Source of the DNA: an uncultured Gemmatimonadales bacterium
GTDB lineage: Bacteria > Gemmatimonadota > Gemmatimonadetes > Gemmatimonadales > GWC2-71-9
Assembly: GCA_963844035.1 (NCBI GenBank)
Contig: CAWJMT010000013.1
Span: 1-13,988, forward strand
Reading direction: 5' to 3'
Length of the DNA: 13,988 bases
Shown: piece after piece, positions 1 to 13,988 of the stretch
Layout: each line of letters begins with the position of its first letter
How positions within the stretch are numbered: the stretch's first letter is position 1
Position numbers and translations under genes: made by a program
Notes under the pieces: generated by a model
Databases searched by the model: none
Told to the model about the DNA's origin: nothing
The model's input: only the letters and a program-made list of their open reading frames with translations

Positions 1-198
1 ACCGCGGTTCTATGCGATGGCGCAGAGGCGTGCGCCACGAGAAGCGGAATTGCGGCAGCACCGCCCTCGATGGCGGCCGCGACGTTGCGAGCCTTGCTCC
101 GCTCGAACAGTCTGCAAGCGGTCTTCTTCACAGCTGCAGCGCCATTTGCCGCCGGCGGCGCCATGCGCGGCACTATCCGCCTGTTTCAGTATCCATGA
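1..198 (+). CDS. CHRD-like protein, paralogue 1 (3' part only; begins before the window)
   Basis: Not in the ORF track. Frame +1 is open from base 1 to TGA 196-198: TAVLCDGAEACATRSG...LQAVFFTAAAPFAAGGAMRGTIRLFQYP*. It shares LCxGxxAC, QxVFFT and GGAMRGT with the proteins at 319-801 and 2829-3337. Confidence 0.85.
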   Translation, partial: TAVLCDGAEACATRSGIAAAPPSMAAATLRALLRSNSLQAVFFTAAAPFAAGGAMRGTIRLFQYP

Positions 199-318
199 GG
201 GCGTAGCTAGGGGTCGGACACCTCCGGCTCCGGATCAATAGAGCCCCCCTTCGGGTATCAGGTTGTCGCTCCCGAATCCGAACGATTGACCTTTTGAACC
301 CCCGACGGTGGAGGAATT

Positions 319-801
319 CTGTTCGCGCGAAGAGTGAAGGCCTTGGCAAAATGCGCAGCGCTCATGGTCGGAGCCGCGTGCGGTGACGACGCAACCCTCC
401 CGGCTGATACCGACTCCTACACCGCGGTGGCCTGGGGCGCGAACGTCATTCCGGTGCGGCCTCCGGTCGACACGTCTGCCAGAGCGTTGATCGACTTCAA
501 CACCGCCACGTTCGCCTACTCGTACTCGGTCGCGGTCCTCCCGCCCGGGATGATCGATTCGATCGCCCTGTACCAGATCGGCGCCGGTCTCGCGCTTCCC
601 AATGAGGCTACGGCGATCCTCTGTTCCGGCGTCGCGGCGTGCTCCGCCCAGAGCGGCACGGCCACGGTGGTAGCGCCGGCGACGGCCGCATCCATCAAGT
701 CCTCGATTCGCCGTTACACAACCCAGGTGGTGTTCTTTACGACCACGGCCCAGAAACCCACGGGCGGCGCGATGCGTGGGACGATGTACACGGGACAGTA
801 G
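319..801 (+). CDS. CHRD-like lipoprotein, paralogue 2 (start CTG 319 or GTG 334)
   Basis: Lipobox-like GAAC followed by GDD. Motifs GANVIP..PVDTSARA, AYSYSV, SIALY, QVVFFT and GGAMRGT parallel the CHRD layout (GxxEVPPVxT...AHIH...YVNVHT...GEIRGQ). GGAGG at 310-314 precedes in-frame CTG-TTC-GCG-CGA, matching MFAR of paralogue 3. Confidence 0.75.
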   Translation: MFARRVKALAKCAALMVGAACGDDATLPADTDSYTAVAWGANVIPVRPPVDTSARALIDFNTATFAYSYSVAVLPPGMIDSIALYQIGAGLALPNEATAILCSGVAACSAQSGTATVVAPATAASIKSSIRRYTTQVVFFTTTAQKPTGGAMRGTMYTGQ

Positions 802-852
802 AAGATTGAGCGATCCGCCGCGGCGGTCAGGGGATCGGTACAGCGCGGTTCG

Positions 853-1854
853 TCAGAAGGCGATGCGGTAGTTGCCCATCACCATCAGGGACTTGCGCCC
901 GATGAACCCGAGCTCGTAGCGCACACCCCAGTGGCGCCCCACGTCCACGGTGCCGCCGAAGAGCATGTTCCAGGGATCGGCGAGCGATTTGTTCAGGGAG
1001 TAGTTCACGACAGTCGTGTCGAGTCCCGAGCCGAGCCGCTGCACGAATTCGTCCACCAGCGCTTTCTGGGCTGGGCCCAGGTCCATGTACCAGGGGGCAC
1101 TCTGGTAGCCGTTGAAGAGGCTGTCTGATCCTGCGGGCAGCACATCCGACAGCTTGATGCTGCCGTTGGTCTCGCTCTCGAGCGCCTGATACATCGTGCC
1201 CAGCCACACCGTGGCGCGCACGTTCTTGTGGCCTCCGAAGCGCACCCTCCGGCCCAGCCTCATACTGAGGATGTTGGCGGGCACCGGGTTGTCGAGCAAA
1301 CTCGAGAAGCCCCATTGATGGTTGAAGTCCACTACGCCGAAGAAATTCCGCATCCCGTACACCCCGGTGATCCCGAACCCACCGACGGCGCCGTCGAAGT
1401 CCGCTCTGGTCTCGAACGCGACCGGCTCCGCGATCCTCACGGTAGTGGTCCCACTGCCGGTGCCCACCATGCCGTACACATTGAGGAACGGAAACAGCCA
1501 CAAATCCATCCGTGCATTGACGAGATCCAGCCGGGCGCTGGCGCCCTCGAACGTGATGAAGCTGACGGGCTGCGGCTCCGCGTTGAACCCGAGGCCCAGG
1601 TTCGAGATCTTGATGTCCTGCCGCATGGAGTAGAAGCCGACGTTGAAGCCGAGCGGCAGCGGCGTCTGGAACCCGCGCTCGATGGCCTTGCGACCCCAGA
1701 TCGGGAAGATCTGGTCGTAGTCCTTGAGCAGGCTGTCGCGCTCCTGCTGGCTCAAGCTCATGTCCGGTTCTTGGGCGGGGAGCGACGCGGGCAGGACGAG
1801 CGCCGCGCCCGCGAGGAGCAGCCCGAGAAAGCGACGGATCGGATGTGGTGTCAT
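853..1854 (-). CDS. uncharacterised outer-membrane beta-barrel protein (333 aa)
   Basis: ATG 1854 overlaps the upstream stop (ATGA). Signal peptide MTPHPIRRFLGLLLAGAALVLPASLPA-QE, amphipathic beta-strand patterns (RMDLWLFPFLNVYGMVG, WGVRYELGF) and a C-terminal aromatic motif GNYRIAF. Confidence 0.75.
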   Translation of the reverse strand: MTPHPIRRFLGLLLAGAALVLPASLPAQEPDMSLSQQERDSLLKDYDQIFPIWGRKAIERGFQTPLPLGFNVGFYSMRQDIKISNLGLGFNAEPQPVSFITFEGASARLDLVNARMDLWLFPFLNVYGMVGTGSGTTTVRIAEPVAFETRADFDGAVGGFGITGVYGMRNFFGVVDFNHQWGFSSLLDNPVPANILSMRLGRRVRFGGHKNVRATVWLGTMYQALESETNGSIKLSDVLPAGSDSLFNGYQSAPWYMDLGPAQKALVDEFVQRLGSGLDTTVVNYSLNKSLADPWNMLFGGTVDVGRHWGVRYELGFIGRKSLMVMGNYRIAF

Positions 1855-2624
1855 GGTTGAGCGGCCGCGGCCTTCGGTCCGCCGATGGGGATGCCCAGGC
1901 CGAGCGCCAGAATGTCGTTCGTGCCCGGCGCGTCGCTGAGCGCGTCGGTGAAGGCGTGGTACCAGTTGGCGCGCAGCCGCAGGCTCTGGAGCCCCGGTTT
2001 TCCCGAGAGCGCGAACTCCGCCAGCACGCTGACTCCCGCGTCCCAGCGATTGACCCGCGACCACAACGCCACGTCGTAGCTCAGATCGTTCTCCCGCGCC
2101 ACACTGCCGGTGTAATGGTCGAACGCCTTCACAACATAGCCGAGTTGCGGCCCAGCCCCGAGCCGCACGCGACCGAAACTTACCTTGGCCAGGATAGGGA
2201 CGGTAACGTACCCAAGCGTGCGCGCCACCGACACATCGCTCGCGACTGCAAAGGCACTGTCGACGTGAGCATCACCGGTCGGAGTGAACGGCAGCCCCTT
2301 GGCGCCCGCCGGGAACTTGAAGGTGAACTCGGGTTGCAGCGAGAAACGGGTCCCGAGCTTCAGCTCCAGGAACCCTCCCACCGCGAATGACCGCAGGCGC
2401 TCCGCATTTTCCAGCCCTGAGAGGGTGGACCAGGCGAGATCGACTTTGATCCCGCCCTGCATTTTCTCGGAGGCGAACTTGTCGCCGAACAGCAGCACCA
2501 GGATCGCCTGGCCCTGGGCGGCCGAGCACGCCGCCACGGCGAGCGTCGCCGTCACCAGCGCGGTGCGACGCCATGCTGGCCACACAGCGGCACGCCGCAA
2601 TCCTTGCATCCCGAGGTTGGTCAT
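1851..2624 (-). CDS. porin-family / outer-membrane beta-barrel protein (PorT/OMP_b-brl_2-like)
   Basis: Signal peptide ending SAAQG-Q. Motifs GGFLELKLGTRFSLQPEF, YVTVPILAK and GAGPQLGY are typical of this barrel family. Alternative start at ATG 2609. Confidence 0.75.
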   Translation of the reverse strand: MTNLGMQGLRRAAVWPAWRRTALVTATLAVAACSAAQGQAILVLLFGDKFASEKMQGGIKVDLAWSTLSGLENAERLRSFAVGGFLELKLGTRFSLQPEFTFKFPAGAKGLPFTPTGDAHVDSAFAVASDVSVARTLGYVTVPILAKVSFGRVRLGAGPQLGYVVKAFDHYTGSVARENDLSYDVALWSRVNRWDAGVSVLAEFALSGKPGLQSLRLRANWYHAFTDALSDAPGTNDILALGLGIPIGGPKAAAAQP

Positions 2625-2637
2625 GAGATTCGGTTCG

Positions 2638-2666
2638 ACACTAATCACCGGGGGTACGAGGGGCAA
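2638..2666 (-). promoter_or_regulatory. putative sigma70 promoter of the beta-barrel gene pair
   Basis: Minus-strand TTGCCC (2666-2661), 17 nt spacer, TAGTGT (2643-2638), 13 nt upstream of ATG 2624. Confidence 0.4.
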
Positions 2667-2828
2667 CCGTACGATGGTGCTACCTAGGTAACCCCGTTGC
2701 CGTCGCGCGTTCCCCGGTGTCAGGTTTCCCTGTGCGGGACGATGGTCTCGTTACCCGGACTACACGAGTCGTGGTCCGCGATCCGTGACAAGAAACCAAC
2801 GCAAGGAGCGTCACTAAAGGAGACTGCC

Positions 2829-3337
2829 ATGTTCGCACGAAGCTCGAAAAAACTGATCGACGGCGTGGCGCTCGCCATCGCCGTGTTGCCCGTTCTCATT
2901 GTGGTGACCGCATGCCACGGCCCCGACTACTGCGATTGCGGGTCGTACGACACGTTCGCAGTAGAGGCAAGGGGCGCAAGGGTCGTTCCCCCCCGACCGA
3001 CACGACCCCCAGAGCCACGGGGATGTTCAACACCAGTTCGCTCGCGTACACGTACGTCGTCTGGACCCCGCCGGCGGGCACCATCGATTCGATTGCTCTC
3101 TACCAGGTTGCTACTGGCGATCCGCTTCCGCCGTCGGCGACGGCGATTCTATGCGCGGGCGTGGCGGCTTGCGCGAGCACCAGTGGCGTGGCGACTCTCG
3201 TGCCTCCGGCGACGTCGGCCACGATAAACACCTCGATGCGCGGGTACGGGACACAGTTGGTGTTCTTTACGACGACGGCTCAAAAGGCCGCCGGCGGCGC
3301 CATGCGGGGGACGCCGTATCCGACCCCGTATGACTAG
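2829..3337 (+). pseudogene. CHRD-like lipoprotein, paralogue 3, split by a frameshift at a C7 tract (pseudogene, phase-variable gene or sequencing error)
   Basis: AAGGAG then ATG 2829 gives MFARSSKKLIDGVALAIAVLPVLIVVTAC (lipobox)...GARVVPP. Homology to paralogue 2 continues in another frame after CCCCCCC 2988-2994 (PTDTTPRATGMFNT...GGAMRGTPYPTPYD*). One extra C gives a 169-aa protein. Hand count: 63/98 identities to paralogue 2 in the core. Confidence 0.8.
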
Positions 3338-3340
3338 GAC

Positions 3341-6298
3341 CTAGGTGCCGGGCGGCGTGGACAGTCGCGCCGCCGCTACCCCCCAGGCCCCGAGGTTGAG
3401 GGTCGCATGCCGGTCGGGCGCAATGCTGAGTGTGCCACTGTTGCGCTCGACCAGATCCACCCGGCGCGCCTGGGCAAAGGTGTACGCGGCGGGCCACACG
3501 CCCACCTGGCGCGACGTGCCCGCCACGTCGAGCAATTTGACGATCGCGCCCTCCCCGTCATCAGCGCGTTTGGCGCCGAGCACCATCGCTCCCGGATCGT
3601 TCACCAGCAAAGCGCTGTCCTTCCCGATCAGCGGACCGGTGCCCGCGCTCGTGAAGGGGGCGCTCACGTACAGCGGGTCGGCCGCTGCCCAGCCGCGGCG
3701 CACCGGCTCCGCTACGTCGCCACCGGTGCCGAGCAGCGAGAGACGAAACCGGCACCGCAGCTCGCCCCCCTGGCGCGCCGCGAAGTTCGCCGCCCAGTAG
3801 TTGTTCATCACGTAGGCGAACAGCGTCCCGTCCGGATCGATCCGCCGGCGCGCCGCTCCGCGGCAAATGTCGTTGAGCGTAAAGAGCGGGGTGTCGGGTC
3901 CGCTCCAGAGCACACCTTCCGTGCCCGCGTGCAGCCACACCCAGTGGGTGTGACAGTACCAATCCCGGCCGCTCCCAGGCTGTTGATCCTGCTCCACCGT
4001 CATCCGGCCGAGCGGTACCTCGACCTCCACGGTGGGCTTGGTGAGGGCGAACGGAAACGCGACGTAGAGCGCTTCCTTCTCGAGCGTCGCCGTCTTGGTG
4101 AATCGGTTCACGATGTCGATCCAGGGGAGCTCGTCGTACAGCGTCACTATCGAGGTCACGGACGGAAAGCCCGTCAATGCGCGCTCGGTCACGAGGCGCA
4201 CGCCGATCCCCGGGAGTCGCTCGCGGCGCGCTTTGACGAGAGTGCTCTGCGTGATCCGCAGCTCGGGTGGCGTGTTCAACCCCTCGCCCCCCGCCTCGGT
4301 CCAGAGCGCGCTGCGGCCGCCACCTGCGGCGTACACGATCTGGTTCAGACCCGACCAGGTGCTCGGGTTCACCCGTTCTTTTCCGTCCGGGCCCTTGAGC
4401 GAGCGGATCGCCCCGCTTCCGGGGTCGAGCGTGACGCGAAACCCACCCGCCTCGGCGTCCAGCGTCTCCCCGTCATCCACCGGCAGACTGGCCGGCCGGT
4501 CGCTCTCGGTGAGCCGGAGATATCCCAGGGCGGGGACATCCCGCATCAATACGAGGGCCGAGCCGTCGGGAAGATCAACGGAAGGGAACTCGCGGTCGCC
4601 GTAGGTAAGACGTCTGCCCGCGCCGAGACGCACCCGGGCGATGTCGCTGCGCGTCCAGCTCGATGCGTTGAAGACGACGCGCCCCATGCCCTTCTCCGTG
4701 CCTTTTCCGATGCGCAACAGTCCGTCGGCGAGCTGCTGCTCGACCGCCGCGCTGGCCGAGTCGAGATAGCGTTGCTTGTAGTGCCACTGCGCCACGGTCT
4801 GCCGGCCCTCGGGGTCGGAGACGCTGGTCCGTGCGCCCCAGGTATGCTCGCCGAACAGCAGCAGGTCTTGCCAGGCGTCACCCCGCTCGGCGGCCCGGTC
4901 TCGAACCCGCACTCCGCCGACGCCGTCGCGCGGCTCGGTGCGGTCGTCCCACAGCGCGAGCAGGTCGGCAGCCCGGGCCGCCAGCTGGAGGCTCCGGAAC
5001 AGCGCGAGCTCGGCAGCGGTGGACGCGGCGCCGTCTTCCTTATAACAGCCGGTGTCACCGCGCCGCACCGGGAGGCGGGTGCCGTAGCGCCGCTCGACCT
5101 CGCGGAAAAAGTCCTCGGCCCGCGCCTGCACGATGTTCGGGTAGGCGAAGCGCCGGTTGAACTCCTCGACGTTGTCCACCAGCCGCTCGTCCACCACTGC
5201 GTTCGTCCCCTGTGCCCCGTGGAGCAACGCGACGTCGTACGGGTAGCCCGGCGACAGCAGCACCGGATCAGACAGCAGCCAGTCGGACAAGCGCCGCGCC
5301 ATGACGTCGGCTCCCTGGTCGAATCCGAACCGCAGCCCGCTGCCGGTGCGCACGCCGCGCCAATGGAGCACGCGGCTGCCGTCCGGACCCTCCCACCAGT
5401 AGAGCTGGGGGTAAGTGGTCCACTGCCCGCTGAGGTGATAGCGCGCTGCGTCGTCGGGGTCGAGCAACGGCACGGCGCGCTCGGGATCCACGCTCGTGGC
5501 GAGGTAGCGGACGCCGCTCGCCGCGAGCAGGCTCGGGAACGTGGCCGGCTGCCCCGGGACGCCGCTGACCTGCGCGCCGGCAAAGGCGAGCCCGCGCTCG
5601 CGTGCCAGGCGCCCCGCGGGCCAGACCAGCCGCGCGTACGTCTCGTGGTCGAGCAACCCGGTGAGCAGGTTCGCGAACAGCGCCTGGAATCCGACCTTGC
5701 CATTGCGAATCGCCTGCAGCAGCCCGTCGACCGCCGGGTCGGACCGATTCTCCACGTAGGAGATCACCTGGTACGCGCACTCGGCCGTCCAGCGAGATGC
5801 GGGGTGCGCGGTCAGGCGGGCAACTGCGGCATCGAGGTTCGCGCGGTGGATCTCGATGCAGCGCTCCTGAAGGTCGGTCGAGCCGATGTCGGTGCGATTG
5901 GAGGCCAGCCAGTACAGCGTCCAGCGGCGTGGCGGGACCACGCGCACACGCGCGCGGGCCACGCGCTTCTTGGCGACTTCGACCTCGATCTGAAACTCGG
6001 ATGGACCGGGGAGGGGCACCCACACTTCGCCCGCGAGCACCGTTCCGGCACCGGTTGGCAGGAGGCCCGCCGTTCCCACCGGGGTGCCGCGGCGGTCGAT
6101 CACCCGCGCGCGGGCGGCGGGCGCGTCCAGCCCGGCGACCGTCACGCGCAGCAGGTTGTTGCGGCCGTCCGGTTGCTGGTACAATGGCGTCGCGCGCGCG
6201 TCGACCGTGACGACACCGCCGCGCGGCGAGCGCACCTCCGGTGCTCCGGCTGCCGCCGTCAATCCCATCCAACCCAGAAAACTGCGACGATCCGTCAT
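3341..6298 (-). CDS. Tat-exported glycoside hydrolase family 38 (alpha-mannosidase)-like protein, 985 aa, apparently degenerate active site
   Basis: Twin-arginine signal MTDRRSFLG with upstream GGAGG. GH38-like motifs TDIGSTDLQ, LYWWEGPDGSRVLHW, LLFGEHTWG, VVFNASSWTRSD, DVPALGY, KEALYVAFPF, VMNNYW and KRADDGEGAIVKL. Confidence 0.85.
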   Translation of the reverse strand: MTDRRSFLGWMGLTAAAGAPEVRSPRGGVVTVDARATPLYQQPDGRNNLLRVTVAGLDAPAARARVIDRRGTPVGTAGLLPTGAGTVLAGEVWVPLPGPSEFQIEVEVAKKRVARARVRVVPPRRWTLYWLASNRTDIGSTDLQERCIEIHRANLDAAVARLTAHPASRWTAECAYQVISYVENRSDPAVDGLLQAIRNGKVGFQALFANLLTGLLDHETYARLVWPAGRLARERGLAFAGAQVSGVPGQPATFPSLLAASGVRYLATSVDPERAVPLLDPDDAARYHLSGQWTTYPQLYWWEGPDGSRVLHWRGVRTGSGLRFGFDQGADVMARRLSDWLLSDPVLLSPGYPYDVALLHGAQGTNAVVDERLVDNVEEFNRRFAYPNIVQARAEDFFREVERRYGTRLPVRRGDTGCYKEDGAASTAAELALFRSLQLAARAADLLALWDDRTEPRDGVGGVRVRDRAAERGDAWQDLLLFGEHTWGARTSVSDPEGRQTVAQWHYKQRYLDSASAAVEQQLADGLLRIGKGTEKGMGRVVFNASSWTRSDIARVRLGAGRRLTYGDREFPSVDLPDGSALVLMRDVPALGYLRLTESDRPASLPVDDGETLDAEAGGFRVTLDPGSGAIRSLKGPDGKERVNPSTWSGLNQIVYAAGGGRSALWTEAGGEGLNTPPELRITQSTLVKARRERLPGIGVRLVTERALTGFPSVTSIVTLYDELPWIDIVNRFTKTATLEKEALYVAFPFALTKPTVEVEVPLGRMTVEQDQQPGSGRDWYCHTHWVWLHAGTEGVLWSGPDTPLFTLNDICRGAARRRIDPDGTLFAYVMNNYWAANFAARQGGELRCRFRLSLLGTGGDVAEPVRRGWAAADPLYVSAPFTSAGTGPLIGKDSALLVNDPGAMVLGAKRADDGEGAIVKLLDVAGTSRQVGVWPAAYTFAQARRVDLVERNSGTLSIAPDRHATLNLGAWGVAAARLSTPPGT

Positions 6299-6427
6299 CG
6301 CAACGTTGTGCCTCCATCGTTCGACGTAGTTCCAAATTGGCATTGAGCAGGGGTGACCCGACACATAGGTTGCCCTACGACCCCAGCTCTAACGATCCAA
6401 TCTCTTCAATATGATGAAGGAGTCCGT

Positions 6428-6901
6428 ATGAAGTGCATGGCATTTGTCCTTGCCGTGTTCGCCATGGCCGGGTGTAAGAAGGGCGAGCAGCCCTCCTCCG
6501 CCGCTTCCGTGCCCGACACGTCCAGCCAGATGATGATGGCCGATACCTCCCACCCGATGATGTCCGACGTGCACATGAGTGCCGATTCGATCAGCGCGGA
6601 GCGGGGAGCGACCCTGTATAAGGACAAGGGGTGCGCCGCATGCCATAACATCGCCAAGGCTGGAGAAGAACCGCACCGGCGTCCCGGCGGAAAGCAGTCG
6701 GGTCCGGACCTGGGCGGCGTCACCGAGCGCCGGGACCGCGGCTGGTTGCGGCGGTGGTTGAAGGACCCGGACGCAATGCGCGTCTCAGACTCGACCGCGA
6801 TCGCGATGACGGCCGAGGCGAAGGGCCTCAAGATGCCGAACATGAAGCTGAGCGATTCGGAGATTGAGGCGTTGATCAACTATCTCGGGGTGAAACAGTA
6901 G
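6428..6901 (+). CDS. lipoprotein class I monoheme cytochrome c (157 aa)
   Basis: GAAGGAG RBS, lipobox MAGC, heme motif CAACH, GPDLGGV..RRDRGWLRRWLKDP and a candidate axial Met in LKMPNMKL. Confidence 0.9.
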   Translation: MKCMAFVLAVFAMAGCKKGEQPSSAASVPDTSSQMMMADTSHPMMSDVHMSADSISAERGATLYKDKGCAACHNIAKAGEEPHRRPGGKQSGPDLGGVTERRDRGWLRRWLKDPDAMRVSDSTAIAMTAEAKGLKMPNMKLSDSEIEALINYLGVKQ

Positions 6902-6936: not shown

Positions 6937-6992
6937 ACGGCGCGCCCGACACCGCAGTCACCTTCACCATTTCATGAGATGAAGGAGCACGC

Positions 6993-7118
6993 ATGAAGCG
7001 CATCGCATTCGTCCTGGCCCTCGTGGCCATGGCCGCGTGTAAGAAGGCCGAGCAGCCCGCCACCGCCGGCGCCCCTGATACCTCCAGCGCGATGATGGCG
7101 GACACCTCGAAGAAGTAA
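6993..7118 (+). CDS. small 41-aa lipoprotein, paralogue of the cytochrome c N-terminus
   Basis: Not in the ORF track. GAAGGAG RBS, ATG 6993, MKRIAFVLALVAMAACKKAEQPATAGAPDTSSAMMADTSKK*, TAA 7116-7118, lipobox MAAC. Confidence 0.85.
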   Translation: MKRIAFVLALVAMAACKKAEQPATAGAPDTSSAMMADTSKK

Positions 7119-7187: not shown

Positions 7188-8198
7188 TCAGGCGGGGCCG
7201 GTGAAGGGCAGCGCGAAGGGAAGGCTCACCACGCGGGCGTCCCGACCCGCGGCGCGAACCACCATCCCGGCGTCCACCTCCCGGCGCACCATCGCGAGGC
7301 CGATCCAACGGCCTCCACCCGATATGCGCTGCTCGGGAATCCACGCGACGCTGGTCACCCGGCCCGCGTCCCGATCCTGGTAGATCACGCTGCCCACGCC
7401 GTCCGCCGGCTCGGCGTCGAACAACAGTCCACGGAGGTGGCGAGTCACGTGGCCGCGAAAATGGAGGCGCGAGACCGTCTCCTGCCCGGTGTAGCAACCC
7501 TTCGTGAACGACACACCACCCAGCTCCTCCAGCCGGACCTCCTGTGGGATCGTCTTCTCGTCCACTTCGGCACCGACTTGGGGCCATCCGCCGAGGATCC
7601 GCGCGCATTCGAGCGCCACGGGTCCGGCCGCGAGCACTCCGGCCGCCGAGAGCCGCTGAGCGACCGCGGCGGCGGCGGCCGCGGGAGCGGTGACCTGCAG
7701 GACGAACGGTGCCTGGTCACTGGCGCGCGCCACGTCGCATTCGGCGGCGTCGAGAGTCAGGGACAGTACCCGGCCCGCGCTGGGCGGGACCGCGAGGCCC
7801 GCCGCCTGGGCCTTCGCGAGCACCTGGGGCCCGGCCAGCCGGAACACCACAACCTCGTCCGTCCGGTCGCTGGTGCGCGCCAGGCGCGGCGGGATCGAGC
7901 GCGTGAAGATCGTGAACGCAGCCGGCCGCCGGTCGGCGGGCACGGTATAGGTCAGCGTCGTACCCTGCCGCGCAGCCCAGCCGTCCACCACGATCATGCC
8001 CTTGGGGGTGAGCATCGCTCCATAGGTGAACGCGCCGTCACCCGGCTTCTCGATGTCGTTGGTCAGCAGGCCCTGCAGCGATGCCGCCGCCCCCGGCCCG
8101 GCGAGGGTCAGGACGCCGACGTCGGCGCGCGCGAACACGGCTCCCGTTTGCAGCGCCGTAAACAGCACCGGCGTCACGGCGTCGGGGCCGAGCTTCAC
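7188..8198 (-). CDS. ygfZ: YgfZ/GcvT-family folate-binding Fe-S cluster maturation protein (CAF17/IBA57-like)
   Basis: Signature VSFTKGCYTGQE, plus LQGLLTNDI and LTPKG motifs. GTG 8198 overlaps the HAD stop (GTGA). Confidence 0.88.
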   Translation of the reverse strand: MKLGPDAVTPVLFTALQTGAVFARADVGVLTLAGPGAAASLQGLLTNDIEKPGDGAFTYGAMLTPKGMIVVDGWAARQGTTLTYTVPADRRPAAFTIFTRSIPPRLARTSDRTDEVVVFRLAGPQVLAKAQAAGLAVPPSAGRVLSLTLDAAECDVARASDQAPFVLQVTAPAAAAAAVAQRLSAAGVLAAGPVALECARILGGWPQVGAEVDEKTIPQEVRLEELGGVSFTKGCYTGQETVSRLHFRGHVTRHLRGLLFDAEPADGVGSVIYQDRDAGRVTSVAWIPEQRISGGGRWIGLAMVRREVDAGMVVRAAGRDARVVSLPFALPFTGPA

Positions 8199-8869
8199 CA
8201 CACGAACAGCTCGGCCGGTTCGTGGCCGGTGAACGAGTGCCACACCGCGTCTGCCTCCGAGAGGGTCGCCGGATCGTGGCTGGTGCTGAGCATCGTGCAG
8301 CGCAGGCCGGCGGCACGTGCGGCAGCGAGGCCGGGCAACGAATCCTCGATCGCGACCGAGCGGCTCACCGCCAGGGGCCGGCGCGCGGAAAGTGCTGCGA
8401 GGGCGGCCTGGTAGCCTTCGGGGTCGGGCTTACAGCGTGCCACGTCTTCCGCGGCGACGACGACCTCGAAATGGCGGCGCAGGCCGGCGCGGTCGAGCAC
8501 CTGATCGATCTCCCGCCTCAGGGCACCCGACACGATGGCCAGCCGCCAGCCCGCGGCGGCGCGCGACACGAACTCCACCGCGCCCGGGACCAGCGTGAGC
8601 GATTCGGCGATCAGTCGCTCGTAGCGCCGCGACTTCTCGGCGACGAGCGCGTCGAGACGCTGGTCTGCGAGCGGCTTGGCGGCGCGCTGGAACGCGGCGA
8701 CGAATGACATGCGGTCGTTCCAGCCGAGGTACTCCTCGTAGTACTGCGCGCGCGTGAGCGCAATTCCTTCGTCGGCCAGCAGCGCCTCGAGGGTGATGCG
8801 GTGCTGCTCCTCGTCGTCCACGATCACGCCGTTGAAGTCGAACAGGATCGCGCCGCCCGGATCATTCAT
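8195..8869 (-). CDS. HAD-superfamily phosphatase (subfamily IA, beta-PGM/CbbY-like)
   Basis: Motif I FDFNGVIVD, motif II IVSG, motif III KPDPEGY and motif IV IEDSLPG. Confidence 0.9.
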   Translation of the reverse strand: MNDPGGAILFDFNGVIVDDEEQHRITLEALLADEGIALTRAQYYEEYLGWNDRMSFVAAFQRAAKPLADQRLDALVAEKSRRYERLIAESLTLVPGAVEFVSRAAAGWRLAIVSGALRREIDQVLDRAGLRRHFEVVVAAEDVARCKPDPEGYQAALAALSARRPLAVSRSVAIEDSLPGLAAARAAGLRCTMLSTSHDPATLSEADAVWHSFTGHEPAELFVW

Positions 8870-10145
8870 AGAACCCCGCTACGCGATACGACTCGTCCAA
8901 CAGCTCGACCGGATGGCGTGCGCGCGCCGAAATGCCGGCGGCGGCGAGCCCCGCGCCGAGCTGCATCAGACACCCGGGGTTGCCCGTCGCGACGACCTGC
9001 GGCGCCGCCTCGCGCAGCGACGCGAGCTTGGGGCCGAGCACCGCGCGTGACATCTCGGGCTGAACGAGCGTGAACAGGCCGGCGCTGCCGCAGCATTGGT
9101 CGGCGTCAGGCGTCGAGACCAGCTGCAGGACCGGAATCGCCTGAAACAGGCGCAGCGGCGCGTCCGCAATGCGCTGCGCGTGCAGCAAGTGGCAGGGGGG
9201 GTCGTACGCGACCCGGAGGTCCAGCGGGGCGCCGGGCACCGGGCCGCGCTCGGCCAGCAGCTCGGAGACGTCGCGGACCCGCGCGGCGAATTGCTCCCCG
9301 CCGGAGGCGGGGAGCAAATGCCCGTACTCCTTCATTGCCGCCCCGCACCCGGCGCTGTTGACGACGATGGGTGCGTCTCCGTCCCCAAACGCCGCGACGT
9401 TGCGGCGGATGAGCGCCTGTGCCTTCGGGGCGAGCCCCGCGTGTACGTGCAACGCCCCGCAACACACCTGCCCGGGCACCTCCTGCACATCGTACCCGTT
9501 CACCGTGAGCGTGCGGATCGTGGCCGCGTGCACGTGGGCGAAGTAGCCGTCCATGATGCAGCCGCGGAACAGCAAGACGGTTGGGCGGTCGGGCGGTCGG
9601 GCGGTCGCGGATGCTGTGCGCGCTTTGACCGCCTGACCGCCTGACCGCCTGCCCGCCGGTCTTGTCGCCGCGAGCATCCCCATCGCGAACCGCAGCGATC
9701 CCCATCCCGCGAGCCACCCGGGAATCCCGGTCGCGCGTAGCATGCGGCCGAGTGCGTACACCACGCGGGACAGTCCGGGTGTCGTGAAGGCGCTCAAGGC
9801 CGCACGCGCGAGCCAGGGGAGCGGGCGGGCGTCAGCGATCATCTCCCGCGCCGCTTCGAGGCCGCGCCCGTAGCCCACGCCGGACGGGCACACGGGCTCG
9901 CAACCGCGGCACCCCAGGCAGCGATCGAGGTGGGTGGCCACGAACGGATCGTCCGGAGCGAGCTGACCGCGCTCGAGCGCGCGCATCAGCTCGATGCGCC
10001 CGCGGGGGCTGTCGGCTTCGTCGCCCGTGGCGAGAAACGTCGGGCAGGCTTGGAGGCAGAACCCGCAGTGCACGCAGGTGTCGAGGGCCGCGAATCCCCC
10101 CCGCGGTTTGGGGGGGGTGCCTGCAGCGTCAACCGGCACGGTCAT
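8862..10145 (-). CDS. glcF: glycolate oxidase iron-sulfur subunit GlcF
   Basis: Two 4Fe-4S motifs (CVHCGFCLQACP, CLGCRGCEPVCPSGV) and two CCG domains (LFRGC...VCCGA; PCHLLH...CCGSAG...NPGC). It follows glcDE; start ATG 10145. Confidence 0.9.
   Translation of the reverse strand: MTVPVDAAGTPPKPRGGFAALDTCVHCGFCLQACPTFLATGDEADSPRGRIELMRALERGQLAPDDPFVATHLDRCLGCRGCEPVCPSGVGYGRGLEAAREMIADARPLPWLARAALSAFTTPGLSRVVYALGRMLRATGIPGWLAGWGSLRFAMGMLAATRPAGRRSGGQAVKARTASATARPPDRPTVLLFRGCIMDGYFAHVHAATIRTLTVNGYDVQEVPGQVCCGALHVHAGLAPKAQALIRRNVAAFGDGDAPIVVNSAGCGAAMKEYGHLLPASGGEQFAARVRDVSELLAERGPVPGAPLDLRVAYDPPCHLLHAQRIADAPLRLFQAIPVLQLVSTPDADQCCGSAGLFTLVQPEMSRAVLGPKLASLREAAPQVVATGNPGCLMQLGAGLAAAGISARARHPVELLDESYRVAGFYE
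9576..9657. repeat. inverted pair of 8-bp tandem repeats inside glcF
   Basis: GACGGTTG + (GGCGGTCG)x3 at 9576-9607, an 18-bp spacer, then (TGACCGCC)x3 + TGCCCGCC at 9626-9657. The arms are near reverse complements. Confidence 0.9.
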
Positions 10146-11352
10146 CGCTTTCGATCGCGACCGCGAGCGAGTTGCCCGGATCGAAGGTGCTGCGCAGGCC
10201 GGCGACCAGCGGCCCGACCCCCTCGCGGTAGGCACCGAAGTGTCCCACCGCGCGGCGCAGGGGCCAGGGAGCCCGTTCGACGGTGAGCGGCACTTCGAGG
10301 ACCGCGAGGGCGCGCCGCAGGCGCCGTAACCGATCGACCGACGCATCGCCCGCCCACCGTAGCGTGCCGACTCCCGGGCTCGCCGACACCCACTCATCCC
10401 CCACTTGATGCTGGACCAGGTCGAGGAGCTCGTCGCTCGAGTCGGGCAGGCCGCCGATCCGGAACGTGACCGGGCGGGTGGCGAACGTTTCCGCGGCGCG
10501 CATCCAGAACGCGTGCGCTTCCTCGGCGCGCAGCGCGGTGAACAGCCCACCCGTGGCCGCGCGCAGCCCTGCCTCCTCGGCCGCGACGAGCGGAGCTGAG
10601 CCCGCCAGGCGGACGGCGAGCGCCCACCGCTCGCGGCGCGCCAGCGCGGGCGACAAGAGCTCCAACGCGGCCAGCGTCAGGCCGGCGGCGCTGATGTCGT
10701 CGCCCATCCGCGACAGATCCTCGCGCGAGCCCTCGAGGATCAGCGTCTGGTCCACGCGCGGCAGGGCGCGCAACCGCAGGTGCACCAGCACGATCACGCC
10801 GAAGGCCCCGAACCCGCCCGCCTGCATGCGGGTGAGATCGTATCCGGCGACATTCTTCATCACGCGGCCGCCGCTCTGAATCAGGCGCCCGTCGCCGGTC
10901 ACGAACGTCACCCCGAGGAGATGGTCGCGGACCGGGCCGAACCCGTGGCGCAGGGGGCCCGCGGTCGCCGTCGCGATCACGGAGCCGAGGGTGCGGCCCG
11001 CCAGCCCGGGCGGATCGAGCGCGAGCCAGACCCCGTGGTCCGCCAGCTGCTGGCGCAGCTGGTCGCAGCCGATCCCCGCTTCCACGGTCGCCGTGAGGTC
11101 CTGGGGCTGGATCGAGGGGACACGATCCAGCCGCCGCGTGGTAAGGGCGAGGTCGGCGGGCGCGTCGGCCTGCATCCACGTCCCAGCGCCTTCGACCCGG
11201 ACCCGCCAGCCTTCGGCGCGTGCGGTGCCCAGCAACAGCGCGACGCCGTCGGGCGACGCCGGTGCAATCCGCGGCACGCCGTCCGGCGTACCCGTATCCT
11301 CGAGCACGGCGTCCCCGCCGAGCAGCGCACGCACCCGCTCCGCGATCTTCAT
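10129..11352 (-). CDS. glcE: glycolate oxidase FAD-binding subunit GlcE
   Basis: FAD_binding_4 motifs DLTATVEAG, TLGSVIAT, GPLRHGFGPVRD and GGRVMKNVAGYDL, with C-terminal FDP. ATG 11352 overlaps the glcD stop (ATGA). Confidence 0.88.
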   Translation of the reverse strand: MKIAERVRALLGGDAVLEDTGTPDGVPRIAPASPDGVALLLGTARAEGWRVRVEGAGTWMQADAPADLALTTRRLDRVPSIQPQDLTATVEAGIGCDQLRQQLADHGVWLALDPPGLAGRTLGSVIATATAGPLRHGFGPVRDHLLGVTFVTGDGRLIQSGGRVMKNVAGYDLTRMQAGGFGAFGVIVLVHLRLRALPRVDQTLILEGSREDLSRMGDDISAAGLTLAALELLSPALARRERWALAVRLAGSAPLVAAEEAGLRAATGGLFTALRAEEAHAFWMRAAETFATRPVTFRIGGLPDSSDELLDLVQHQVGDEWVSASPGVGTLRWAGDASVDRLRRLRRALAVLEVPLTVERAPWPLRRAVGHFGAYREGVGPLVAGLRSTFDPGNSLAVAIESDDRAG

Positions 11353-12779
11353 GAATTCCGCACTCCGGTCACTCCAGCCCACTCACGACACGCATGCACG
11401 GGGATCACCTTGCCGGGGTTCACGCGCTCCGCGGGATCGAACACGCGGCGCACCGCGTGCATGGCCGCGAGCGAGTCGCCATCGAAGATGTGCGGCATGT
11501 AGCGCAGCTTGTCGAGTCCGATGCCGTGCTCCCCGGTGATGGTGCCCCCCGCGGCGATACACGCTGCCATGATCTCCCCACTCGCCGCCTCCACCCGCTC
11601 CATGAGGCCGGGGGTGCGGCTGTCGAACGAAATGTTGGGATGCAGGTTGCCGTCCCCGGCATGGAATACGTTGCTGACCCGGAGCCGGTAACGCGCGGCG
11701 ATCTCACCGATCATTTCCAGCACGTCGGGCAGGGTCGAGCGGGGAACCACCGCGTCCTGCACTACCAGGTCGCGTGACAGCCGGCCCATCGCACCGAACG
11801 CCTTCTTGCGTCCCTGCCATAGCCGCGCGCGTTCCCCTGCGTCCGCCGCGGTGCGCACCGACCGCGCCCCGTGCGCCATGAGGATCGCGTGCACGCTTTC
11901 CGCTTCCGCCTGGACCGCGGCGTCGTCGCGGCCATCCAGCTCCGTGAGCAGGACCGCGGCCGCGTCGCGGGGATACCCGGCCGCGTACACCGAGTCTTCG
12001 ACCGCACCGATGCACGACTGGTCCATCATCTCGAGCGCCGCGGGCACGATACCGCTCGCGATCACGGCCGACACCGCCGCTCCGGCGGTCCGGAGCGAGC
12101 TGAAATCCGCGAGCAACGTGCGCACCGCCCGTGGCACCGGGAGCAGCCGCACGGCGATGCGCGTGGCGAGGCCGAAATTTCCCTCCGAGCCGGTGAACAG
12201 GCCGACCAGGTCGGGCCCCCAGGGTTCGCCCCCCGGGCTGCCGAGTTGAACCACCTGCCCGTCCGCGAGCACGACCTCGAGCGCGAGCAGGTTGCTGACG
12301 GTCGCCCCGTACTTGAGGCAGTGAGGCCCACCCGCGTTCTCCGCCACGTTGCCGCCGATGGTGCACGCGGTTTGACTCGACGGGTCGGGGGCGTACAGCA
12401 GGCCGTGTGGCGCGGCGGCGGCCGACAGTTTGACGTTCACCACCCCGGGCTCCACCACTGCGAAGCGGTTCACGGGGTCGATCGTGAGGATGCGATTCAG
12501 GCGGGTGAGCACGATCAGCACCGCGCCCTCGCCCGCGAGCGCGCCGCCCGACAGCCCGGTCCCGGCCCCGCGCGGCACGAAGGGCACGCCATGGATCGCG
12601 AGCAGCCGAATGATGGCGATGACCTCGTCGCGGCTGCCGGGAAGCACGACCACTCCCGGGAAGCTGGTGTGGGTCGTCAGCCCGTCCATGGCATACGTGG
12701 CCCGCTCGGCGGTGGCGGTCCGGGTGTGCGCCGGCCCGACGATTTGCGCCAGTGCGTTCACCAGGGCGCGGTCGATCAC
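11349..12779 (-). CDS. glcD: glycolate oxidase subunit GlcD (FAD-linked oxidase)
   Basis: PRGAGTGLSGGA, YAPDPSSQTACTIGGNVAENAGGPHCLKYG, GSEG, NVFHAGDGNLHP and GGTITGEHGIG. GTG 12779 overlaps the upstream stop (GTGA). Confidence 0.92.
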   Translation of the reverse strand: MIDRALVNALAQIVGPAHTRTATAERATYAMDGLTTHTSFPGVVVLPGSRDEVIAIIRLLAIHGVPFVPRGAGTGLSGGALAGEGAVLIVLTRLNRILTIDPVNRFAVVEPGVVNVKLSAAAAPHGLLYAPDPSSQTACTIGGNVAENAGGPHCLKYGATVSNLLALEVVLADGQVVQLGSPGGEPWGPDLVGLFTGSEGNFGLATRIAVRLLPVPRAVRTLLADFSSLRTAGAAVSAVIASGIVPAALEMMDQSCIGAVEDSVYAAGYPRDAAAVLLTELDGRDDAAVQAEAESVHAILMAHGARSVRTAADAGERARLWQGRKKAFGAMGRLSRDLVVQDAVVPRSTLPDVLEMIGEIAARYRLRVSNVFHAGDGNLHPNISFDSRTPGLMERVEAASGEIMAACIAAGGTITGEHGIGLDKLRYMPHIFDGDSLAAMHAVRRVFDPAERVNPGKVIPVHACREWAGVTGVRNS

Positions 12780-13465
12780 GTCGCGGGCTCGATGTGGGGA
12801 CGGGCGCCGCCACGGCCGTTCCGCCCGGCCCGCTCGTGCACCACGGCGCGCTGCTCCGCTTCGACGGTGAGCGGCTCGAGCAGCCGCACCAGCTGGCTCA
12901 GGCGCGCGGTGGTGCTCTGGGTGGCGAGCAGCGCCTGCTTGGCCGCTGCTTCGAGCTCGAGGGCCGCCGCCACGCGGAACGACAGCGCGGCGGGATCGGC
13001 GGGAAGGTCGACCGGTATCGCGGCGTCGTGCCCGGCCAGGGTGCCGAGGGCCTCCGTCAGACCGCGAAACCCGCGGCGCACGGCGGCGGCCAGCGCGCCT
13101 GCCTCGTCCGGCGCCGCGGCGTCGTCGTCGAACTCTTCGACGAGCGCCCGCCGGTAGAGCCGTTCGTCCGGGCACCATTGCAGCAGGCGGAACCGTCGCT
13201 CGCCGGCGGTCAGAATGTCGGACCGCCCGTCGGGGAGCGGGTGACTCGCCTGGATCACCGCCACGCAACCGACTTCGCCCGGGCTCGGCATCGGATCTGC
13301 CCCGGCGGCCGTCCGGGCCGGGACGTAGACGATCCCGAAGCGGCGGTCACCCGCGAGGCAATCGGCCAGCATCTGGCGGTAGCGGGGCTCGAAGATGTGC
13401 AACGCCTGCGGGGCTCCGGGAAACAACACCAGCGGCAGCGGAAAAATCGGAAGCTCACGGGGCAT
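12776..13465 (-). CDS. stand-alone LON peptidase substrate-binding (N-terminal) domain protein
   Basis: LPIFPLPLVLFPG...LHIFEPRYRQMLADC...FGIV, DGRSDI..GERRFR and KQALL. No ATPase or protease domain. Confidence 0.9.
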   Translation of the reverse strand: MPRELPIFPLPLVLFPGAPQALHIFEPRYRQMLADCLAGDRRFGIVYVPARTAAGADPMPSPGEVGCVAVIQASHPLPDGRSDILTAGERRFRLLQWCPDERLYRRALVEEFDDDAAAPDEAGALAAAVRRGFRGLTEALGTLAGHDAAIPVDLPADPAALSFRVAAALELEAAAKQALLATQSTTARLSQLVRLLEPLTVEAEQRAVVHERAGRNGRGGARPHIEPAT

Positions 13466-13472
13466 GGCTAGG

Positions 13473-13478
13473 AAAGTA
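13473..13478 (-). promoter_or_regulatory. putative -10 box of a leaderless transcript
   Basis: TACTTT lies 7 nt upstream of ATG 13465, with no Shine-Dalgarno sequence. Confidence 0.45.
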
Positions 13479-13516
13479 ACCGGGCCCGGAGAGGAGCGGG
13501 GGACCGGCCGGCGCCA

Positions 13517-13550
13517 AGCAAAAGGGTCAGGAGCACGTGCTCCTGACCCC
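13517..13550 (-). terminator. intrinsic terminator downstream of the sigma factor gene
   Basis: Perfect inverted repeat GGGTCAGGAGCA-CG-TGCTCCTGACCC (13524-13549) followed on the minus strand by TTTTGCT. Confidence 0.85.
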
Positions 13551-13576
13551 TGGTACGCGCAGACGTCCTTGGGTGG

Positions 13577-13987
13577 CTAGGCCGCTCTCCAAAATCCCTT
13601 GAGTGCCCGGCCATCCGGCGACTCCCGCAGCTTCTCGAAGGCGCGCTCCCGGATCTGGCGGATACGTTCGCGCGTCACACCCATCAGGGCGCCGATCTTC
13701 TCCAAGGTCATCGCCTCGCTGCCTTCTTCGAGACCGTAGTAGAGATAGAGGATCTTGCGTTCGCGGGGGGTCAGGTACTTGTGGAAGATGCGGTCGACGA
13801 AATCGCGCATCAGCTTGCCGTCGGTGTGTTCCTCGATCTCACCACCTTCTTGTCCGGCAAACCGTTCACCCAAGGTGGCCGCGTCCCGATCGCTGCGATC
13901 AACCGGCGCGTCGAGCGATAGCTCGGCGGCCGTCATCCTTCGGGCGGTTCTAACGTTTTCCACGGAGTCATCGAGCGCCCGCGCGAT
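13577..13987 (-). CDS. RNA polymerase sigma70 factor, RpoD/RpoS family (regions 3-4; 5' part outside the window)
   Basis: Frame open to the window edge (IARALDDSVENV...). Region 3.2 LSLDAPV and region 4 HTH LTPRERKIL..YYGL...MTLEKIGALMGVTRERIRQIRERAFEKLR. Confidence 0.92.
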   Translation of the reverse strand: MARALDDSVENVRTARRMTAAELSLDAPVDRSDRDAATLGERFAGQEGGEIEEHTDGKLMRDFVDRIFHKYLTPRERKILYLYYGLEEGSEAMTLEKIGALMGVTRERIRQIRERAFEKLRESPDGRALKGFWRAA

Positions 13988-13988
13988 C

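What the first reader, a model, noticed from the sequence alone, without database searches (positions are those of the whole stretch)
1..3337. Three-member cluster of a divergent, His-less CHRD-like lipoprotein family with a conserved Cys pair
Seen: three same-strand paralogues (1-198, 319-801, 2829-3337) share TA[IV]LCxGxxAC, QxVFFT and GGAMRGT. Only one is cleanly shown by the ORF track. Paralogues 2 and 3 align gaplessly at about 64% (63/98 by hand); paralogue 1 is more diverged. Known: bacterial CHRD domains carry AHIH, YVNVHT and GEIRGQ motifs. Inference: these are CHRD-fold proteins in which the conserved His positions became SIALY and VFFT and a C-x5-C (possible disulfide) was gained. 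This would be a functionally shifted, locally expanded family of surface lipoproteins that may be undescribed.
Basis: partly seen in the sequence, partly recalled or inferred. Interest (0 to 1): 0.7.

Follow-up and report, generated by a model that had tools for sequence, protein, structure and literature searches.

The report
Histidine-less CHRD lipoprotein family
Three related genes in a Gemmatimonadales bacterium encode small, predicted lipid-anchored envelope proteins that descend from CHRD proteins with a predicted superoxide-dismutase-like fold but lack all three histidines of the likely copper site, so they likely act as non-enzymatic binding scaffolds; one copy is cut by the contig end and one is frameshifted.

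Summary
The three paralogues are real, and p2/p3 match at 63/98 residues. Caveats: p1 is cut by the contig start, and p3 is frameshifted, possibly an error in a noisy assembly. Two antisense beta-barrel genes separate p3 from p2. A fourth paralogue lies on another contig.

The CHRD reading is supported by three results: profile-profile probability 91-98%, a chain of intermediates crossing the Pfam cut-off, and a predicted Cu/Zn-SOD-type barrel. The polar signature (HxH, YxNxH, E, Q) is replaced together while structural Gly/Pro/Arg stay.

One correction: the Cys pair was not gained with His loss. His-bearing relatives have it, including one with the same upstream region, signal peptide and neighbours.

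New here: expanded copies, including p3, carry a CxC just after the lipid anchor (30/36 a Cys pair, against 0/34 ancestral-type). It arose again in a second lineage's tandem array.

The family is narrow (2 of 401 family genomes) and under purifying selection (dN/dS about 0.36). Most likely these are metal-free, disulfide-stapled envelope scaffolds; a Cys-based copper role is the main rival. His-less CHRD has precedent in chordin.

The parts
1..198 (+). Paralogue 1, last 65 codons (Cys pair at 13 and 31, QAVFFT, GGAMRGT); 5' part cut off by the contig start
   Evidence: N-terminal part with lipobox seen in the C32 copy
319..801 (+). Paralogue 2, intact 160-aa ORF from CTG 319 (alternative GTG start 334); predicted lipoprotein with an SOD-type eight-stranded barrel
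379..381 (+). Predicted lipidated Cys21 of p2 (VGAA-C)
   Evidence: A20-C21 conserved in at least 90% of 53 rows; position
565..573 (+). A83-L-Y85: former HxH of canonical CHRD
622..642 (+). C102-x5-C108, predicted disulfide, inherited from His-bearing relatives
724..738 (+). Q136-V-V138-F-F140: former YxNxH
853..1854 (-). Outer-membrane beta-barrel-like gene 1, interrupting the cluster
   Evidence: PF13505 E 7e-4, below cut-off
1851..2624 (-). Outer-membrane beta-barrel gene 2
   Evidence: PF13568 37.8 bits, over cut-off
2684..3341 (+). Presence/absence block carrying p3 and its upstream region; missing from C32 and from L018
2791..2828 (+). Leader with two AAGGAG motifs, shared by expansion-type copies in other loci
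2829..3337 (+). Paralogue 3, frameshifted near 2988-3000; lipobox Cys 2913-2915; domain Cys pair at 3152 and 3170
2931..2939 (+). Tether C-x-C of p3, six to eight residues after the lipobox Cys
3341..6265 (-). GH38-like large gene; conserved right flank of the variable slot
   Evidence: PF01074 E 0.026, weak; synteny

Best explanation
These genes encode predicted lipoproteins of a CHRD subfamily with a predicted Cu/Zn-SOD-type barrel that lack the three histidines of the likely ancestral copper site, and they likely work as metal-free, disulfide-stabilised binding scaffolds tethered in the cell envelope. Shown: homology to CHRD; joint replacement of the polar signature (E43V, H83A, H85Y, Y136Q, N138V, H140F, Q155T, p2 numbering) with structural Gly/Pro/Arg kept; inheritance of the domain Cys pair from His-bearing relatives; purifying selection; one to three copies at a variable slot between an AAA ATPase and a GH38-like gene, plus a single ancestral-type copy divergent from YceI-like genes. 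Inferred: lipidation and export; the His triad of the ancestor binds copper; Ala/Tyr/Val/Phe fill or cover the emptied site; the Cys pairs form disulfides; duplicates diversify to bind envelope partners (proteins or glycans), as chordin's metal-free CHRD domains bind glycosaminoglycans. The ligand is not identified.
For: CHRD link. hhalign: probability 91%, E 1e-6 against 39 canonical domains, while the SOD control was negative; 98%, E 2.6e-13 against A5, which includes signal-peptide columns and three near relatives. Atlas: top three clusters are CHRD, scores 0.86-0.89, lead level. The family profile's next hits in 401 genomes are His-bearing CHRD lipoproteins, 16 of 17. Intermediates: His-less P0075, P0092 and P0082 pass the Pfam CHRD cut-off (26, 39, 43 bits against 24.1), and His-bearing P0089 and P0098 score 86 and 84. 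Fold: AlphaFold pLDDT 82.7; the top 13 of 48,161 chains are all SOD-superfamily, best Z 8.4, rmsd 3.1, 108 aligned, next other fold Z 6.0. The His-bearing control model has the same order of strands and helix and the same top hits, Z 10.8. Site loss: (76 His-less against 41 His-bearing rows). The replacing residues differ between His-less clades (A/Y/F here, R or Q/L/Y in G002), so no new conserved catalytic set is seen. Selection: dN/dS median 0.36, range 0.15-0.65, 91 pairs of 14 genes. Precedents: chordin CHRD has an SOD-like barrel, no metal, and binds GAGs (PMC13382577); a bacterial Cu-only SOD uses an HxH...H triad (PMC9823218).
Against: No ligand, partner or location was tested. Metal binding by bacterial CHRD histidines is itself unproven; my sequence profiles of CHRD and SOD did not align significantly (E 0.07), so the site mapping rests on strand order. 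The window copies have no Pfam CHRD hit, and only 4 of 53 members hit weakly (best E 0.13). Foldseek gave no match at E<=0.001, and Z about 8 is middling. Both flanking genes face the other way, so the neighbourhood gives no operon clue. The tether CxC of most expanded copies is not explained by a plain scaffold. Net charge is near neutral (median +2), so a chordin-like polyanion site is not evident.
Confidence: 0.55

Rival explanations
1. Copper handling moved from histidines to cysteines. The His-less barrel plus tether CxC acts as a lipid-anchored Cu(I) chaperone or buffer, like CCS (a non-catalytic SOD-like domain with a CXC motif; CCS architecture recalled).
For: A tether Cys pair is present in 30 of 36 MF-type copies (22 CxC) and 4 of 4 copies of the G002-type tandem clade, against 0 of 34 ancestral MRTS-type. 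The two CxC groups sit on separate supported branches. CCS domain II is among the top fold hits. c-type cytochromes lie near the ancestral locus.
Against: p2-like (0 of 8, and p2 itself) and p1-like (0 of 4) copies lack the CxC. Spacing varies from 1 to about 13 residues, which suits a disulfide loop. The envelope is oxidising. No copper genes flank the window slot. No Cu/Zn SOD gene was found in G000, which is 84% complete.
Confidence: 0.18
2. Structural envelope protein. Tether cysteines cross-link neighbouring lipoproteins into a disulfide mesh or oligomer, and the barrel is a building block.
For: Extra cysteines lie next to the membrane anchor in expanded copies. A CHRD protein is reported among spore-envelope proteins, with a structural role suggested for ExsM (passages of PMC5335551).
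Against: The family is rare and copy number varies between close strains, which is unlike a core structural layer. Many copies lack tether cysteines.
Confidence: 0.12
3. Relaxed, decaying duplicates of a CHRD gene that lost its function; the cluster is a birth-and-death graveyard.
For: p3 is frameshifted; the C32 copies carry a TAG and an insertion; the second copy in L022 and L023 has the same TAG in two assemblies; p3 is absent from C32 and L018. The other 10 of 10 window genes tested are intact.
Against: dN/dS is below 1 in all 91 pairs, with p3 pairs at 0.21-0.56. There are invariant columns across 53 homologues. The assembly breaks 54 of 134 conserved genes, so p3's shift needs no biological cause.
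Confidence: 0.1
4. The family is unrelated to CHRD and the motif resemblance is chance or convergence.
For: There is no Pfam hit for the window copies and no PDB sequence hit to chordin with the family profile.
Against: There is a continuous series of intermediates, a shared signal peptide, upstream DNA and neighbours with a His-bearing CHRD gene, and matching predicted folds.
Confidence: 0.03

Closest known systems
Bacterial CHRD-domain lipoproteins (Pfam PF07452), especially His3+Cys-pair Gemmatimonadales members (L007/G009, P0089, P0098)
   Same: Signal peptide and lipobox, GxxVxP, R in the helix, GxxRG, domain Cys pair, predicted fold; L007 shares upstream DNA and a divergent YceI-like neighbour.
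   Different: All three His plus E, Y, N and Q of the signature are replaced; Cys spacing is shortened to 5; below the Pfam cut-off; tandemly expanded; tether CxC in many copies.
Human chordin CHRD1-4 (PDB 9RD6, 9QVV, 9IGM; PMC13382577)
   Same: SOD-like Greek-key barrel without metal, non-catalytic; His mostly absent at the aligned positions.
   Different: Four-domain module of a secreted animal protein that binds sulfated GAGs. The family here is single-domain and lipid-anchored, with near-neutral charge; its profile does not hit chordin directly.
Cu/Zn SOD superfamily: M. tuberculosis SodC (1PZS), Cu-only SOD5 (4N3T), D. radiodurans DR_0644 (8ACA)
   Same: Predicted fold, Z 7-8.5 for SodC and SOD5 but only 4.7 for DR_0644; the ancestral HxH...H pattern resembles the Cu-only triad of DR_0644.
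   Different: No Cu or Zn ligands, no Zn or electrostatic loops, no significant sequence-profile match.
CCS/Lys7 domain II and B. subtilis SOD-like protein (1EJ8, 1JK9, 1S4I)
   Same: SOD-like scaffolds among the top fold hits; that they are non-catalytic and that CCS has a CXC motif is recalled.
   Different: CHRD lineage rather than SOD lineage; the CxC lies N-terminal in a lipid tether; no partner SOD was found in G000.

Membership tests
CHRD domain (PF07452) | Score over the Pfam gathering cut-off (24.1 bits) | tested here: not met
   No hit for p1, p2, p3; 4 of 53 members weak, best E 0.13. More basal His-less relatives P0075, P0082, P0092 pass.
CHRD domain (PF07452) | Full-length homology by profile comparison and intermediates | tested here: met
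   hhalign 91% / E 1e-6, 98% / E 2.6e-13; intermediates.
CHRD domain (PF07452) | SOD-like eight-stranded barrel | tested here: met
   Predicted model, top 13 hits SOD-superfamily, element-by-element match to the His-bearing control.
CHRD domain (PF07452) | Direct structural match to solved chordin CHRD | tested here: inconclusive
   Chordin was listed neither for p2 nor for the canonical control model, so it may be missing from the fold library.
Canonical bacterial CHRD | HxH and NxH histidine triad | tested here: not met
   A/Y/F in p2, p3 and the C25 copy; the triad is present in 32 of 32 distinct domains from 31 family PF07452 loci.
Canonical bacterial CHRD | C-terminal GE[IV]RGQ | tested here: inconclusive
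   G150, R153 and G154 kept; E and Q replaced (GAMRGT).
Cu/Zn or Cu-only SOD | His ligands for copper | tested here: not met
   0 of 3 positions are His; 49 of 76 His-less rows have no His anywhere in the scored region.
Cu/Zn or Cu-only SOD | Superoxide dismutase activity | not testable with these tools
   Needs an assay.
Bacterial lipoprotein | Basic N-terminus, hydrophobic stretch, small-small-Cys lipobox | tested here: met
   By inspection: A20-C21 in at least 90% of 53 rows; p3 VVTA-C; p1 LLSG-C in C32; p2 has a non-canonical Gly at -3. No SignalP-type predictor was available.
Bacterial lipoprotein | Lipidation and surface versus periplasmic location | not testable with these tools
   Needs globomycin or palmitate labelling and protease accessibility.
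CCS-like copper chaperone | Cu(I)-binding CXC plus a partner SOD | tested here: inconclusive
   CxC present in p3 and most MF-type copies, absent in p2; PF00080 not found in G000, 84% complete; binding untested.

The most novel reading that the evidence does not exclude
A CHRD lipoprotein lineage abandoned its three-histidine copper site and then, twice independently upon tandem expansion, gained a membrane-proximal CxC. This would make a bacterial, lipid-anchored, CCS-like copper chaperone built from a pseudo-SOD barrel. The His3 orthologue, the His-less form and the His-less CxC form would be a natural series that makes the unknown function of bacterial CHRD domains directly testable.
Probability: 0.18. 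Interest if true: 0.75.

Novelty: new variant of a known kind. Interest (0 to 1): 0.42.

Why it matters
Bacterial CHRD domains have no established function (passages of PMC5335551 and PMC13382577). This lineage supplies matched natural variants: a His3+Cys orthologue, His-less single-copy genes at the same locus, and expanded His-less copies with and without a tether CxC. Comparing them would test whether the CHRD histidines form a copper site and what the barrel does without it, paralleling the metal-free state of animal chordin. The family is invisible to Pfam and NCBIfam, so it is also an annotation gap. Its narrow range and unknown ligand limit the impact.

Tried and rejected
Pfam, NCBIfam and PDB sequence searches of the window copies: nothing.

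GTDB pattern scan with A1: 52 stretches matched a pattern, none confirmed.

Three long proteins among the 50 representative hits (P0084, P0094, P0099) are PKD/SprB/DUF7507-type by Pfam and were dropped as low-complexity matches. L044 was dropped likewise. No search restricted to longer proteins was run; the representative search had no length limit and showed no credible fusion.

Foldseek: no match at E<=0.001, though SODs fill most top rows. Chordin was absent from all fold lists, including the control.

CHRD against SOD profile: not significant. DR_0644 was considered as a possible CHRD member because of 26% identity; it was not found with the CHRD profile, so rejected.

Two separate His losses: suggested, but a single loss was not rejected (p-AU 0.51), so unresolved.

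Raw-read check of the p3 frameshift: no run held more than 0.08 of the words, no RNA holder was listed, and no listed piece bridged the site; uninformative, and not used for habitat.

CsrA control of the GGA-rich leader: PF02599 not found in G000 and no stable shared hairpin. Rfam: only one tRNA in 5 sources. Sigma-70 promoter scan of 180-3450: 0 sites. The 25-nt ancestral leader matched only G000 of 401 genomes.

The 8-bp repeat at the p3 block ends was first read as a recombination site. The right copy is simply the GH38-like stop region, so rejected as a mobile-element signature.

Paper searches CHRD+Gemmatimonad and SOD-like/lacks/copper ligands/lipoprotein/bacterial returned 0. Searches listed no description of a His-less bacterial CHRD subfamily (listings only). 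Hyvonen 2003 was not read.
Full report
Observation. The window is the whole contig G000:C13. Three + strand stretches share the stated motifs, and p2 and p3 match at 63 of 98 residues without gaps. p1 (1-198) is a C-terminal fragment. p2 (319-801) is intact, starting at CTG 319 or GTG 334. p3 (2829-3337) has its signal peptide, lipobox Cys and a C-x-C in one frame and its domain in another, with the shift near 2988-3000. Two antisense beta-barrel genes lie between p2 and p3. A fourth paralogue is on C25. Contig C32 repeats the window at 91-95% identity. There p1 has a signal peptide and LSGC lipobox but is disrupted, p2 has a TAG, and p3 is absent.

Is p3 broken in life? G000 is noisy: 54 of 134 conserved genes compared with two same-genus genomes show a frame change or stop, 62 frameshifts in 173 kb. 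By my arithmetic that is about 0.18 per 500 bp. Many small contigs duplicate large ones at 81-99% identity. Against the error reading, the 10 of 10 other window genes tested are intact, while at least 6 of their C32 copies shift frame. Public runs could not settle it. One copy elsewhere has the same TAG in two assemblies, L022 and L023, so real decay likely occurs at this slot.

Family. p2 finds 58 proteins among 162 candidates; 53 were aligned as A1. A1 against 1.8 billion representatives gives 50 hits, three of them unrelated long proteins. In 401 genomes of the same family, 19 match at E<=0.01. G000 and G002 hold His-less members, and 16 of the other 17 are His-bearing CHRD lipoproteins. 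A genome of the same family is labelled Gemmatimonadales. A metagenome scan gave 11 loci from 169 pattern matches. The family is real but narrow.

CHRD origin. Pfam misses the window copies and hits 4 of 53 members weakly. The link comes from intermediates. Of 25 representative hits scanned, five pass the CHRD cut-off: His-less P0075, P0092 and P0082, and His-bearing P0089 and P0098. Profile comparison gives 91% and E 1e-6 against canonical domains, with a negative SOD control, and 98% against A5. The Atlas points to CHRD clusters at lead level. The canonical profile hits human chordin at E 2e-19, where the His positions are also mostly replaced. The p2 model (pLDDT 82.7) has SOD-superfamily chains in its top 13 places (best Z 8.4, rmsd 3.1, 108 aligned). 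Foldseek alone was not significant. A His-bearing control gives the same secondary-structure order and the same hits. This agrees with the chordin crystal structure, described as SOD-like barrels without metal that bind GAGs (PMC13382577; I saw the abstract, introduction, start of results and passages).

What changed. In an alignment of 76 His-less and 41 His-bearing rows, H83, H85, Y136, N138 and H140 are 41 of 41 in the His-bearing set (grouped by the three His), and E43 and Q155 are 37 of 41. In the His-less set these become mostly A, Y, Q, V, F, V and T. G40, P45, G113, R131, G150, R153 and G154 stay in both. The triad is the rule in canonical domains: 32 of 32 distinct domains from 31 PF07452 loci in this family, and 176 of 184 in a broad set. 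Both counts lean towards His, because the profile was built from His-filtered rows and one scan pattern contained the third His. Five of the broad domains had lost the triad, mostly in long repeat proteins, so His loss is not unique. By strand order the HxH ends strand 4 and the third His ends strand 7, as for the copper ligands of SODs (recalled). A bacterial Cu-only SOD is reported with His74, His76 and His182 (PMC9823218, passages). That the ancestor bound copper is inference.

The Cys pair is older than the His loss. Six His-bearing rows carry it with spacings of 7-14, and both cysteines are invariant across an 11-row His+/His- series. In a 40-row tree, a 99/93 branch separates most canonical domains from the group holding L007, P0089, P0098 and all His-less rows. 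One or two His losses cannot be told apart (p-AU 0.51). The His-bearing G009 gene is divergent from YceI-like genes, like the His-less C25, G002 and L021 genes. It shares their upstream promoter-like and ribosome-binding DNA, read by eye, and their MRTS signal peptide. It is the likely orthologue before the loss.

Two loci. An ancestral single-copy locus lies beside YceI-like genes, a small lipoprotein, a beta-barrel and c-type cytochromes. An expansion slot lies between an AAA ATPase and the GH38-like gene, both facing away. It holds 1 copy in L018, L020 and L026, 2 in L022 and C32, and 3 here. G002 has a separate tandem of three at another site, from a distinct clade (100/100). dN/dS is 0.36 at the median, 0.15-0.65 over 91 non-independent pairs of 14 genes: selected, but loosely.

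An overlooked feature. Of 99 rows, 90 were scored (8 lacked an N-terminus, 1 was a duplicate). A Cys pair follows the lipobox in 30 of 36 MF-type copies: 22 CxC, 6 other spacings, and 2 that the script cut short but one search shows. It is present in 4 of 4 G002-type tandem copies, and in 0 of 34 MRTS-type, 0 of 8 p2-like and 0 of 4 p1-like. The G002 MRTS copy, sister to its CxC copies, lacks it, so the motif likely arose twice. p3 has it and p2 does not.

Mechanism. Most likely (0.55) these are lipid-anchored, disulfide-stapled barrels that lost a metal site and serve as binding scaffolds, diversifying by duplication. No conserved polar replacement set exists across His-less clades, which argues against a new catalytic site. 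Rivals are Cys-based copper handling (0.18), a cross-linked structural role (0.12), decay (0.10) and non-CHRD origin (0.03). No ligand is identified, and oligomeric state could not be predicted.

Novelty. I found no description in eight paper searches (listings, plus passages of PMC3608174, PMC12825985 and PMC5335551). The library omits most subscription papers, including Hyvonen 2003, and no supplements were read. The scan had no note on this sequence. Another reports a different Cys-loop lipoprotein array in this genome. Verdict: a new variant of a known kind, a CHRD derivative that fails the canonical His test; interest 0.42.

Noticed in passing
G000:C32:8200-21677 versus the whole window: The window is duplicated on C32 at 91-95% identity with many frameshifts; 22 contig pairs overlap at 81-99%, suggesting strain mixing or assembly noise.
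   Followed up: partly
G000 genome-wide: 54 of 134 conserved genes appear broken; pseudogene calls in this genome need read support.
   Followed up: yes
L002:6350-6400; L021, L025, L027, L028: About 30 nt spanning the ribosome-binding site and start of the ancestral-type gene are nearly invariant while the proteins diverge to about 50-60% identity; no Rfam match (of these only L002 was scanned).
   Followed up: partly
window 2791-2828: Double AAGGAG leader shared by expansion-type copies; CsrA not found in G000.
   Followed up: partly
window 319-321; L018: p2 begins with CTG where the family has ATG-TTC; L018 also reads Leu there, with Met a few codons later, so a non-ATG or shifted start is conserved.
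   Followed up: no
L002:1-6130; L045:3217-9738; L046:8660-14700: Two to four tandem YceI-like secreted genes with a conserved WWQMSPNLNHLW-type N-terminus, near a multiheme cytochrome-TPR gene and cytochromes c.
   Followed up: no
L047:7512-8900 (G002:C72): Independent tandem of three His-less CHRD lipoproteins with a C-x4-C domain pair and tether CxC, near a tRNA.
   Followed up: partly
L003 (G000:C4:436267-436650): A canonical CHRD gene whose protein has unusual letter make-up; possibly foreign or contaminating DNA.
   Followed up: no
window 3341-6265 (-): 974-aa GH38-like protein with a twin-arginine-like N-terminus (by eye) and only a weak Pfam hit, conserved at about 80% in related loci.
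   Followed up: no
window 6413-6549 and 6978-7108: 137-bp direct repeat at 77% identity: a remnant of the cytochrome c gene start just downstream of it.
   Followed up: no
window 7188-13988 (-): Ordinary run: GcvT-like, HAD hydrolase, glycolate-oxidase-type Fe-S and two FAD subunits, Lon N-domain protein, sigma-70 C-terminus.
   Followed up: no
L118, L125, L133, L139, L151: Individual CHRD domains that have lost the His triad, four of them in long Bacteroidota proteins.
   Followed up: no
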